DNA of 64,000 nucleotides from Escherichia coli O157:H7 (GTDB taxonomy: Bacteria; Pseudomonadota; Gammaproteobacteria; Enterobacterales; Enterobacteriaceae). The DNA is taken from NCBI RefSeq assembly GCF_013167455.1, contig NZ_CP038328.1. The stretch is one strand, 5' to 3'. Positions 36,001-38,025 of this stretch are shown piece after piece (position 1 is the stretch's first letter; every line of letters starts with the position of its first letter). The position numbers are program-made.

Positions 36001-38025
36001 CAACTTCCAGTTACAGAAGGTGGATTACAACCATCTCGGAACCGATATTTTCGACCCGAAGCCTTAAAAACAAAAATCCGCCCCGAGAGGCGGATTTTTT
36101 ATATCACCAAAGTGATTAGAAGCGGTAACCAACACCGGCAATCCAGGTGCCTACGTCAACGCTACGAATACGGCTCTGCTCGTAAGAGAAGTCCAGAGCA
36201 ACGTTTTCCATCGGGTTGAACTGCAGACCAGCACCGTAGGAGAAACCGTAGTCGCTGGTGTCGTGTTTGTAGGTCGGGTATTCAGTGGTCTGGAATTTAC
36301 CATAACCCACACCCACTACACCGTAGATGCTTGCCCAGTCGTTAATGCGGTAAGCCGGACCAGCAGTGATGCCGTAGTACTGGTTTTTGTTGTAGTCACC
36401 AGAGCTTGCAGTACGGCTTTTCTCGGTGTAAGTGAATGAACCGATCACACCCAGCGGGCTGTTGTCTTCTTCATAGCGGTATTTCAGGTTGAAACCGCCC
36501 ATTTTGTTCATTTGGCCCTGAGCGTCGCTCTGTGCGTAACCGCCAGTTACGGTAGAAGTCGCAGCTACGGAAGTACCTGCGGTGAAAGCCAGAACTGCGG
36601 CCAGTGCTGAAAGACATGCAATTTTTTTCATAACCACCTCAAATGTGATTCAAATAAGTCCTAAGTTTTAAATATATCAAAAATTAATGGGAAACTCTTC
36701 GCGATTTGTGATGTCTAACGGGCCATTTCATGTAACAGAACGTTTCCATACACCGCTATCCATCTAAATTTAAATCACTTTTTCAGAGAACTGCGTAAGT
36801 ATTACGCATGTTTTCCCTGTCATTCATCCAGATTATTCCTAATCACCAGACTAATGATTCCATCAATCCTGGCGCATTTTAGTCAAAACGGGGGAAAATT
36901 TTTTCAACAAATGCTCAACCAGCATTGGGTATATCCAGTACACTCCACGCTTTACTTAAGTCTAGATATTTGTGGGAGAAAGGATGCCTGGTTCATTACG
37001 TAAAATGCCGGTCTGGTTACCAATAGTCATATTGCTCGTTGCCATGGCGTCTATTCAAGGTGGAGCTTCGTTAGCTAAGTCACTTTTTCCTCTGGTGGGC
37101 GCACCGGGTGTCACTGCGCTGCGCCTGGCATTAGGAACGCTGATCCTCATCGCGTTCTTTAAGCCATGGCGACTGCGCTTTGCCAAAGAGCAACGGTTAC
37201 CGCTGTTGTTTTACGGCGTTTCGCTGGGTGGGATGAATTATCTTTTTTATCTCTCTATTCAGACGGTACCGCTGGGTATTGCGGTGGCGCTGGAGTTCAC
37301 CGGACCACTGGCGGTGGCGCTGTTCTCTTCTCGTCGCCCGGTAGATTTCGTCTGGGTTGTGCTGGCGGTTCTTGGTCTGTGGTTCCTGCTACCGCTGGGG
37401 CAAGACGTTTCCCATGTCGATTTAACCGGCTGTGCGCTGGCACTGGGGGCCGGGGCTTGTTGGGCTATTTACATTTTAAGTGGGCAACGCGCAGGAGCGG
37501 AACATGGCCCTGCGACGGTGGCAATTGGTTCGTTGATTGCAGCGTTAATTTTCGTGCCAATTGGAGCGCTTCAGGCTGGTGAAGCACTCTGGCACTGGTC
37601 GGTTATTCCATTGGGTCTGGCGGTCGCTATTCTCTCGACCGCTCTGCCTTATTCGCTGGAAATGATTGCCCTCACCCGTTTGCCAACACGGACATTTGGT
37701 ACGCTGATGAGCATGGAACCGGCGCTGGCTGCCGTTTCCGGGATGATTTTCCTCGGAGAAACACTGACACCCATACAGCTGCTGGCGCTCGGCGCAATTA
37801 TCGCCGCTTCAATGGGTTCTACGCTGACAGTACGCAAAGAGAGCAAAATAAAAGAATTAGACATTAATTAAATTTACATTTCTGCATGGTTATGCATAAC
37901 CATGCAGAATTTCTCGCTACTTTTCCTCTACACCGTCTTTATATATCGAATTATGCAAAAGCATATTTATTCCGAAAATTCCTGGCGAGCAAATAAATAA
38001 GAATTGTTCTTATCAATATATCTAA

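What the first reader, a model, noticed from the sequence alone, without database searches (positions are those of the whole stretch)
37880..37909. Perfect 30-bp palindrome immediately after rhtA
ttctgcatggttatgcataaccatgcagaa is perfectly self-complementary over 30 bp, an unusually long perfect dyad for a simple terminator. It may terminate rhtA, but such a long perfect palindrome could also be a protein-binding site or a recombination-prone structure. The dps promoter lies about 200 bp downstream.
Basis: seen in the sequence. Interest (0 to 1): 0.3.

Follow-up and report, generated by a model that had tools for sequence, protein, structure and literature searches.

The report
rhtA mRNA 3'-end hairpin
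The perfect 30-bp palindrome just after the E. coli rhtA gene is real, but it is an ordinary terminator-type RNA hairpin that marks and protects the end of the rhtA message; it is conserved by compensatory changes across enteric bacteria and is already recorded in published data.

Summary
Window 37880-37909 is a perfect 15+15 palindrome, 8 nt after the rhtA stop codon and about 220 bp upstream of the dps start site. It is far beyond chance: the next longest perfect palindrome in the window is 14 bp.

It is identical in E. coli K-12 and single-copy in 5369 of 5426 complete E. coli genomes.

In 64 rhtA orthologues from about 20 enterobacterial genera, a hairpin sits 5-15 nt after the stop codon. 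All 11 core pairs show compensatory changes. Loop length varies from 3 to 10 nt. G·U wobbles outnumber A·C mismatches 45 to 10. This indicates an RNA structure read from the rhtA strand, not a fixed DNA operator.

A published 3'-end map (TRS, PMC10687069) places the primary rhtA 3' terminus 7 nt after the palindrome.

The tail is U-poor (UUUCUCG) and the downstream RNA is C-rich and G-poor. Polymerase release is therefore probably weak intrinsic termination plus Rho, with the hairpin acting as an exonuclease barrier. That split is inferred, not shown.

The 30-bp repeat was already noted by Antipov et al. 2017 as a weak Dps contact. Verdict: ordinary and already known, so low interest.

The parts
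36984..37871 (+). rhtA coding sequence (threonine/homoserine exporter). The stop codon TAA is at 37869-37871.
   Evidence: ORF list. The RefSeq annotation under the matches names rhtA. The 3' end of the gene and the rhtA-dps intergenic region match K-12 MG1655 apart from two substitutions.
37880..37892 (+). 5' arm of the RNA stem (UUCUGCAUGGUUA)
   Evidence: RNA fold. All 11 core pairs covary in 64 orthologues.
37893..37896 (+). Loop (UGCA). It is self-complementary only in Escherichia, which is what makes the DNA a perfect 30-mer.
   Evidence: Loops in other genera are 3-10 nt and not palindromic.
37897..37909 (+). 3' arm of the RNA stem (UAACCAUGCAGAA)
37910..37918 (+). U-poor tail UUUCUCGCU. 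The published primary rhtA 3' terminus has its dominant position at window 37916 (NC_000913.3 849165, minus strand). The peak spans 37911-37918 (849170-849163).
   Evidence: TRS supplementary data, sheet 'LB RNAtag-seq'. Coordinates were converted through the K-12 alignment.
37910..37990 (+). Pyrimidine-rich, G-poor untranslated stretch downstream of the hairpin; a candidate Rho-loading (rut-like) region. This is inferred.
   Evidence: Across 64 orthologues the C/G ratio is 2.0 over 80 nt and 3.0 over the first 10 nt, with C>G in 60 of 64. This matches the signature described by Dar & Sorek 2018.
38118..38123 (+). dps -10 hexamer (TATACT), given for context. It lies about 210 bp downstream of the palindrome and is not part of the element.
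   Evidence: Sequence. It falls in an invariant block in the 14-genus alignment. Antipov 2017 places the repeat 216-281 bp from Pdps.

Best explanation
The palindrome encodes a stem-loop at the 3' end of the rhtA mRNA. When RNA polymerase transcribes past the rhtA stop codon, the RNA folds into a 13-bp hairpin. Steady-state rhtA transcripts end 7 nt beyond it.

The hairpin therefore defines the 3' boundary of the rhtA message. It protects the message from 3'-to-5' exonucleases and limits transcription running on towards dps.

How polymerase is released is inferred, not shown. The tail is U-poor, the hairpin lies only 8 nt from the stop codon, and the downstream RNA is C-rich and G-poor. The most likely picture is a weak, non-canonical intrinsic terminator backed up by Rho-dependent termination further downstream, with exonucleases trimming read-through transcripts back to the hairpin.

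Shown here or in published data: the structure, its conservation by covariation, its single-copy status and the mapped 3' end. Inferred: the division of labour between intrinsic termination, Rho and trimming.
For: - **Structure and significance:** perfect 15+15 dyad, RNA dG -18.7, z = -6.7.
- **Conservation of position:** of 80 rhtA orthologous loci, 64 in about 20 genera carry the alignable hairpin, starting 5-15 nt (median 9) after the stop codon.
- **Covariation:** RNAalifold finds compensatory changes at 11 of 11 pairs. With a 15-pair structure, 86.9% of cells are paired against 70.2% in shuffles and 32-45% when the partner is slid. The covariation score is 0.53 against 0.20, reached by 0 of 500 shuffles.
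- **A stepwise compensatory path:** in Kosakonia one pair goes C-G, then U·G, then U-A (L035, L028, L042).
- **Strand asymmetry:** in the 12 core pairs there are 45 G·U cells against 10 A·C cells. G·U pairs are shared by whole clades (Citrobacter, Kosakonia, Buttiauxella), while A·C mismatches are singletons. This is expected for RNA of the rhtA strand, not for duplex DNA or a cruciform.
- **Mapped 3' end:** the published primary rhtA 3' terminus is at NC_000913.3 849163-849170, dominant 849165, which is +7 after the palindrome.
- **Functional replacement:** in Mangrovibacter the same position holds a textbook GC-stem plus U-run terminator (L067, L070).
- **Single copy:** one site per genome in 5369 E. 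coli genomes. No other match in the window or in the +-2 kb flanks of the 80 loci.
- **Support for the mixed release mechanism:** the tail has 4 U in 8 nt in E. coli and a mean of 3.3 in the family, and there is no upstream A-tract. C/G is 2-3 downstream, matching the Rho-dependent protective stem-loop signature. A terminator 5 bp after a stop codon lost efficiency from about 90% to under 10% in a reporter system.
- **E. coli allele:** the B2-type allele trades the last palindrome base pair for a longer U-run.
Against: - A simple terminator scan does not call the site, because the U-tract is too poor.
- One Term-seq study (Adams 2021) lists no 3' end here, probably because rhtA is weakly expressed.
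- No bicyclomycin or exonuclease-mutant data for this locus could be retrieved, so Rho involvement and trimming are untested.
- Counted as independent events rather than cells, the G·U excess over A·C is modest (roughly 12 against 7).
- The base of the stem (UU...AA) and the first tail bases (UAU) are conserved in sequence and do not flip. Pairing alone does not explain this.
- dps follows rhtA in nearly all loci, so synteny cannot separate an rhtA-linked role from a dps-linked one.
Confidence: 0.85

Rival explanations
1. It is a DNA-level structural element of the distal dps regulatory region. The inverted repeat, possibly extruded as a cruciform, would be a preferred contact for the nucleoid protein Dps or another nucleoid protein and would influence dps promoter topology or autoregulation. 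Antipov et al. 2017 suggested this.
For: Antipov 2017 states that one of two primary Dps DNase I contacts, 216-281 bp from Pdps, has a 30-bp inverted repeat at its centre. The same study reports lower dps promoter activity in a dps-null strain. Dps ChIP-seq sites are enriched for inverted repeats. As single-stranded DNA the arm folds at -13 kcal/mol. The distance from the hairpin to the dps ATG is 258-266 nt in most species.
Against: - The original footprint was weak: a few protected bands at 5-fold Dps excess. The distal fragment carrying the repeat bound Dps less well than the promoter-proximal fragment.
- Non-palindromic loops of 3-10 nt in other genera, and G·U pairs tolerated on one strand only, fit RNA better than a cruciform.
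- The distance conservation is not special. The ompX-rhtA and dps-glnH spacers are equally constant in length.
- About 150 bp of unalignable sequence separates the hairpin from the conserved dps promoter block.
- An RNA 3' end maps right at the hairpin.
- One rhtA orthologue without dps downstream still has a hairpin (L072).
Confidence: 0.06
2. It is a bidirectional or antisense terminator. The same hairpin would also stop transcripts made from the opposite strand, for example from divergent promoters in the dps upstream region, before they run antisense into rhtA.
For: A perfect palindrome folds identically on both strands. The covariance model also scores the minus strand, at 26-41 bits, always below the plus strand.
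Against: The minus-strand tail (AUGUAAAUUU) is not U-rich. No opposite-strand 3' end is listed near this site in the two 3'-end datasets examined. The G·U excess over A·C favours the rhtA-sense strand.
Confidence: 0.05
3. It is the operator of a dimeric transcription factor that regulates rhtA or dps.
For: It is a long perfect dyad in an intergenic region upstream of a heavily regulated promoter.
Against: The half-site sequence is not conserved between genera but changes with compensation, for example CTGCATGG, CAGCATGAG, ACCGTGGT, GCCGGGAAG and CCGCATC. The spacing between the arms varies from 3 to 10 nt. No further copies of the full palindrome exist in the window, although loose matches (2 mismatches) to its 12-nt core are somewhat more frequent than in shuffles. 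The site lies about 220 bp from the dps start and downstream of rhtA.
Confidence: 0.02
4. It is a recombination-prone or selfish palindrome (a repeat-element remnant or fragile site) with no function.
For: It is a perfect palindrome. One strain has an IS1 inserted 5 nt downstream of it.
Against: It is single-copy. It is stable in 5369 of 5426 genomes. It is maintained by compensatory substitutions across genera, which shows purifying selection on pairing. From established knowledge, 30 bp is well below the length at which palindromes become unstable in E. coli.
Confidence: 0.02

Closest known systems
[quoted passage not shown]
   Same: A stable stem-loop lies immediately upstream of a precise steady-state 3' end. 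U content after the stem is reduced and there is no upstream A-tract. Cytosine exceeds guanosine downstream. The gene is weakly expressed.
   Different: Rho dependence and exonuclease trimming have not been shown for rhtA. The E. coli tail (UUUCUCG, or UUUUCUCG in the B2-type allele) is more U-rich than in most orthologues, so some intrinsic termination is likely.
Canonical intrinsic (Rho-independent) terminator
   Same: A hairpin of terminator size (13 bp, 4-nt loop, -18.7 kcal/mol) sits right after a gene. The RNA 3' end lies 7 nt after the stem, or 9 nt after the last G-C pair. Mangrovibacter has a textbook terminator at the equivalent position.
   Different: Only 5 of 13 stem pairs are G-C. 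The tail has 4 U in 8 nt in E. coli and a mean of 3.3 in the family, with no A-tract, and it fails a consensus scan. The hairpin starts 8 nt after the stop codon, a distance at which a model terminator was strongly repressed by the ribosome.
Dps-contacted inverted repeats (Melekhov 2015, PMC4433220; Antipov 2017, PMC5553809)
   Same: This is the same 30-bp inverted repeat, which those authors describe as the centre of a distal Dps DNase I contact in the dps regulatory region.
   Different: Those papers treat it as a DNA structural element and do not consider the rhtA 3' end. The comparative and 3'-end evidence here points to an RNA role. The reported Dps contact was weak.
REP/BIME and other repeated extragenic palindromes
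   Same: It is an extragenic dyad that would fold in RNA and could block exonucleases.
   Different: It is single-copy and has no sequence relation to REP.

Membership tests
Intrinsic (Rho-independent) terminator | Stable stem-loop encoded just downstream of the gene | tested here: met
   13-bp stem, 4-nt loop, dG -18.7 kcal/mol, z = -6.7. Only 5 of 13 pairs are G-C.
Intrinsic (Rho-independent) terminator | U-rich tract of 7-8 nt immediately 3' of the stem | tested here: not met
   The tail UUUCUCGC has 4 U in 8 nt, and the consensus scan does not call the site. The family consensus is UAUYCYCC with a mean of 3.3 U in 8 nt. The B2-type allele has UUUUCUCG.
Intrinsic (Rho-independent) terminator | RNA 3' end a few nucleotides (about 7-9) after the stem | tested here: met
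   The published 3' terminus peak lies +2 to +9 after the palindrome, dominant at +7. This is also compatible with exonuclease trimming.
Intrinsic (Rho-independent) terminator | Termination by RNA polymerase alone in vitro, without Rho | not testable with these tools
   This needs single-round in vitro transcription.
Protective 3' stem-loop of a Rho-dependent transcript | Steady-state 3' end directly downstream of a stable stem-loop that lacks a U-rich tail and an upstream A-tract | tested here: met
   The upstream flank is UUAUU-type, not A-rich.
Protective 3' stem-loop of a Rho-dependent transcript | C-over-G enrichment (rut-like) downstream of the stem-loop | tested here: met
   C/G is 2.97 over 10 nt, 2.28 over 40 nt and 2.03 over 80 nt. 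C>G in 60 of 64 orthologues.
Protective 3' stem-loop of a Rho-dependent transcript | Read-through on Rho inhibition; longer 3' tails in pnp or rnb mutants | not testable with these tools
   No supplementary tables are held for Dar & Sorek 2018. rhtA is absent from the Adams 2021 tables. No paper links rhtA with bicyclomycin.
Conserved structured RNA element (general) | Base pairs maintained by compensatory substitutions beyond controls | tested here: met
   11 of 11 pairs are compensatory. The covariation score is 0.53 against 0.20 in shuffles (0 of 500 reach it) and 0.06-0.12 when the partner is slid.
Dimeric transcription-factor operator | Conserved half-site sequence at fixed spacing | tested here: not met
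   Half-sites diverge between genera and the spacing between the arms varies from 3 to 10 nt.
Repeated extragenic palindromes (REP/BIME and similar) | Many copies per genome with a family consensus | tested here: not met
   There is one site per E. coli genome; the second 'place' is the self-complement. There is no other match in the window and no Rfam match.
Cruciform or Dps-contact DNA element | Constraint acting equally on both DNA strands, plus specific protein contact | tested here: inconclusive
   45 G·U cells against 10 A·C cells argues for one-strand RNA, but the event counts are modest. The in vitro Dps contact is reported only in the literature and was weak.

The most novel reading that the evidence does not exclude
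The hairpin is more than a generic 3'-end structure. Three features are conserved: the sequence at the stem base and tail (5'-UU...AA|UAU, which does not flip although neighbouring pairs do), the distance of 5-15 nt from the stop codon, and the position upstream of dps. Together they could mean it is a translation-sensitive, leaky terminator that sets how much rhtA transcription reads into the dps control region. Alternatively it could be a specific protein-recognition element, on RNA or, as Antipov et al. proposed, a Dps-contacted DNA structure that feeds back on dps.
Probability: 0.1. Interest if true: 0.4.

Novelty: already known. Interest (0 to 1): 0.12.

Why it matters
It matters little beyond housekeeping. 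The analysis assigns a long-noticed 30-bp inverted repeat in the 'dps regulatory region' to the 3' end of the neighbouring rhtA message. This cautions against reading it as a Dps-specific DNA structure.

It also gives a clean, deeply conserved example of a U-poor terminator-type hairpin with a C-rich downstream flank. That is useful as a test case for the intrinsic-versus-Rho question, and for people engineering rhtA or dps expression.

Tried and rejected
- **Rfam:** a scan of 36600-39100 at a permissive E-value gave nothing at the palindrome. The only hits were sub-threshold ones at the dps terminator region.
- **Consensus terminator scan:** it did not call the site.
- **Other copies:** none were found with up to 3 mismatches in the window, in E. 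coli genomes, or by covariance-model search with filters off.
- **NC_000913.3 annotation:** no feature is annotated at the site.
- **Literature for 3' ends:**
  - The Adams 2021 tables have no rhtA entry.
  - The supplements of Dar & Sorek 2018 and of PMC9023263 are not held.
  - The TERMITe supplements have no rhtA entry.
  - Peters 2012 is not held.
  - No paper combines rhtA with bicyclomycin or with dps and terminator.
- **Hairpin-to-dps distance:** I considered that its constancy (258-266 nt) points to a dps-linked DNA role. I rejected this because the two neighbouring intergenic spacers are just as constant in length.
- **Known motifs:** I compared the sequence from memory with NtrC, sigma-54, NsrR, MntR, Fur and OxyR motifs. 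None fits, and the covariation makes any fixed operator unlikely.
- **First dps distance calculation:** it used a mis-framed query and was redone correctly.

Full report
**Observation**

Window 37880-37909 is TTCTGCATGGTTATGCATAACCATGCAGAA, a perfect 15+15 palindrome with no spacer. It starts 8 nt after the rhtA stop codon at 37869-37871. It ends about 210 bp before the dps -10 hexamer at 38118-38123; the dps ATG is at 38170.

It is not a chance event:
- The next longest perfect palindrome in the window has a half-length of 7.
- 100 Markov simulations never exceeded a half-length of 11.
- The expected number with half-length >=15 is 6e-5 per window.

As RNA the plus strand folds into a 13-bp stem with a UGCA loop (-18.7 kcal/mol, z = -6.7). 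As DNA it folds at -13.0 kcal/mol.

**Identity of the locus**

The window is E. coli, in reverse orientation relative to K-12 MG1655. The palindrome is identical in K-12 and corresponds to NC_000913.3 849172-849201. No feature is annotated there and no Rfam family matches.

A 71-nt query around it matches 5369 of 5426 complete E. coli genomes at one site each. The apparent second 'place' per genome is the palindrome matching itself on the other strand. 4075 genomes are identical over the 71 nt.

Three variant alleles were seen:
- A B2-type allele (L082, L084) changes the last palindrome base from A to T. This shortens the dyad to 28 bp and lengthens the following U-run to UUUU.
- Another lineage (L002) has T to A just after the palindrome, giving a 34-bp perfect palindrome.
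- One strain (L083) has IS1 inserted 5 nt after the palindrome.

No other copy exists in the window, either with up to 3 mismatches or by covariance-model search with filters off.

**Comparative evidence**

I fetched 80 rhtA orthologous loci from Enterobacteriaceae and relatives. Nearly all carry a hairpin just after the stop codon, but its sequence differs between genera:

| Genus | Stem arms |
|---|---|
| Escherichia coli | UUCUGCAUGG / CCAUGCAGAA |
| Escherichia albertii | UUUUGCAUGG / CCAUGCAAAA |
| Kosakonia | UUAUUCAGCAUGAG / CUCAUGCUGAAUA |
| Buttiauxella | UAUUUACCGUGGU / ACCACGGUAAAUA |
| Leclercia | GCCGGGAAG / CUUCCCGGC |
| Atlantibacter | UUAUUCCGCAUC / GAUGCGGAAUAA |

Loops range from 3 to 10 nt and are self-complementary only in Escherichia. 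The perfect 30-mer is therefore a lineage-specific detail of a conserved stem-loop.

On a 64-sequence alignment:
- RNAalifold predicts the stem, and all 11 pairs show compensatory double changes.
- For a 15-pair structure, 86.9% of cells are paired, against 70.2% in column shuffles and 32-45% when the 3' partner is slid by 1-3 columns.
- The covariation score is 0.53 against 0.20, reached by 0 of 500 shuffles.

One Kosakonia pair shows the classic path C-G, then U·G, then U-A (L035, L028, L042).

**RNA or DNA, and which strand**

A transition in a Watson-Crick pair gives either G·T or A·C. G·T is G·U in plus-strand RNA and is tolerated. A·C would be G·U only in minus-strand RNA. Duplex DNA or a cruciform should disfavour both equally.

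In the 12 core pairs there are 45 G·U cells against 10 A·C cells, and 3 of those 10 come from one misaligned sequence. Counted as independent events the excess is smaller, about 12 against 7. However, G·U pairs are shared by whole clades (Citrobacter, Kosakonia, Buttiauxella), while A·C mismatches are all singletons.

Together with the variable, non-palindromic loops, this favours a structure in RNA of the rhtA-sense strand.

**Experimental 3' end**

The TRS study (Nat Commun 2023, PMC10687069) lists a 'Primary' 3' terminus for rhtA in E. coli K-12 in its LB RNAtag-seq sheet. The peak spans 849163-849170 on the minus strand, with the dominant position at 849165. The paper shows the same hairpin folded at -18.7 kcal/mol and reports a 46-nt 3' UTR.

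Converted to window coordinates, the dominant end is 37916. This is the G of UUUCUCG, 7 nt after the palindrome and 9 nt after the last G-C pair of the stem.

One other Term-seq study lists no 3' end here, plausibly because rhtA is weakly expressed.

**Mechanism of release (inferred)**

Several features argue against an efficient canonical intrinsic terminator:
- The tail is U-poor: 4 U in 8 nt in E. coli, a mean of 3.3 in the family, with the consensus GAA|UAUYCYCC.
- The upstream flank is UUAUU-type rather than A-rich.
- A consensus terminator scan does not call the site.
- The RNA downstream is pyrimidine-rich and G-poor. C/G is 3.0 over 10 nt and 2.0 over 80 nt, with C>G in 60 of 64 species.

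[quoted passage not shown] They note that such sites may be inefficient intrinsic terminators backed up by Rho.

The hairpin starts only 5-15 nt (median 9) after the stop codon. In a reporter system, moving a stop codon from 28 to 5 bp upstream of a terminator cut its efficiency from about 90% to under 10%. A closely following ribosome would therefore hinder intrinsic termination here.

Two observations point the other way. The +7 end position and the UUU(U) run in E. coli are compatible with some intrinsic termination. Mangrovibacter carries a textbook GC-stem plus U-run terminator at the equivalent place.

I conclude that this is a 3'-end-forming and protecting hairpin. Release is probably shared between weak intrinsic termination and Rho, but this split is untested.

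**Rival readings**

*Dps contact or cruciform.* Ozoline's group already noted 'a 30 bp inverted repeat' at the centre of a distal Dps DNase I contact, 216-281 bp from Pdps, and suggested a topological role in dps autoregulation. The original data were weak: a few protected bands at 5-fold Dps excess. The distal fragment also bound Dps less well than the promoter-proximal one.

The hairpin-to-dps distance is strikingly constant, 258-266 nt in most species. But the ompX-rhtA and dps-glnH spacers are just as constant in length, so this is not specific evidence. About 150 bp of unalignable sequence separates the hairpin from the conserved dps promoter block.

*Transcription-factor operator.* This is contradicted by diverging half-sites and variable spacing.

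*Repeated element or fragile palindrome.* This is contradicted by single-copy status, population stability and covariation.

*Bidirectional terminator.* This role cannot be excluded but has no support. The minus-strand tail is not U-rich and no opposite-strand 3' ends are listed.

**What remains unexplained**

The two outermost core pairs (U-A, U-A) and the first tail bases (U, A, U) are conserved in sequence in 54-59 of 64 species (43 for the third tail base) and almost never flip, although neighbouring pairs flip freely. Pairing alone does not explain this. It may reflect requirements of termination, of nuclease or protein recognition, or of local A/T-rich context.

**Verdict**

The element is an ordinary terminator-type RNA hairpin at the rhtA 3' end. 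It is deeply conserved by covariation, and both the repeat and the 3' end are already present in the literature. Novelty is 'already known' and interest is low.

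Noticed in passing
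L083:601-720 (E. coli strain tcmA_3, NZ_CP059835.1); equivalent to window 37914/37915: An IS1 element is inserted 5 nt after the palindrome (GCAGAATTTCT|GGTGATGCTGCC...). It separates the rhtA hairpin from the rest of the rhtA-dps spacer and from the dps promoter.
   Followed up: partly
L082 and L084, position 350 (equivalent to window 37909); L002:2565-2575: Two natural E. coli alleles were seen. A B2-type allele changes the last palindrome base A to T, giving a 28-bp dyad and a UUUU tail. Another lineage has T to A just after the palindrome, giving a 34-bp perfect dyad with a weaker U-run. About 24% of complete genomes differ from the window in the 71-nt query.
   Followed up: partly
alignment A2 columns 19-20, 53-54 and 56-58 (window 37880-37881, 37908-37912): The base of the stem (UU...AA) and the first tail bases (UAU) are conserved in sequence in about 54-59 of 64 species (43 for the third tail base) and almost never flip, unlike neighbouring pairs. 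Pairing alone does not explain this.
   Followed up: partly
L067:2925-2960 and L070:2915-2950 (Mangrovibacter): At the position of the enterobacterial hairpin these genomes have textbook intrinsic terminators: AGCCCGTTCAAACGGGCTTTTCTTC and AACCCGTTCACCCGGGTTATTTTTT. This looks like a replacement of the U-poor hairpin type.
   Followed up: partly
80 loci: the ompX-rhtA, rhtA-dps and dps-glnH spacers (window 36632-36983, 37872-38169, 38674-39076): All three intergenic spacers keep nearly constant length across genera (interquartile ranges 353-370, 298-305 and 362-365 nt). For the rhtA-dps spacer, the only one aligned here, much of the sequence is not alignable between genera.
   Followed up: partly
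window 38069-38084 and 38115-38127: CTATTAGTGTGATAGG (CTATT-N6-ATAGG) and GTGCTATACTTA are the only near-invariant blocks of the dps upstream region across 14 genera. From general knowledge they fit the OxyR site and the -10 region.
   Followed up: no
window 38664-38746: Three sub-threshold Rfam hits (ctRNA_p42d at 26.9 bits, STnc70, isrD) pile up just after the dps stop codon, over the dps terminator hairpin. This is probably a generic terminator resemblance. Published 3'-end maps put the dps terminus here.
   Followed up: no
window-wide: The 12-mer CTGCATGGTTAT has 12 additional matches with 2 mismatches, plus the 2 true arms, against 5.4 +- 2.1 expected from dinucleotide shuffles. This is possibly codon or oligonucleotide bias and was not examined.
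   Followed up: no
window 29490-29518 and 4131-4163: Other short, strong inverted repeats are present: 12-nt perfect arms with a 5-nt loop (CCGTCACCCCGA/TCGGGGTGACGG), and 14-nt arms at 93% complementarity. They are likely terminators or REP-like hairpins and were not examined.
   Followed up: no
PMC10687069 supplementary data 4 (rhtA row): Read coverage of the 46-nt rhtA 3' UTR is about 5-fold higher than that of the coding sequence (0.24-0.30 against 0.05-0.06). The authors do not flag it as an outlier, and dps and opgE show similar ratios. It is consistent with a stable 3' fragment or with a 3' bias of the method.
   Followed up: no
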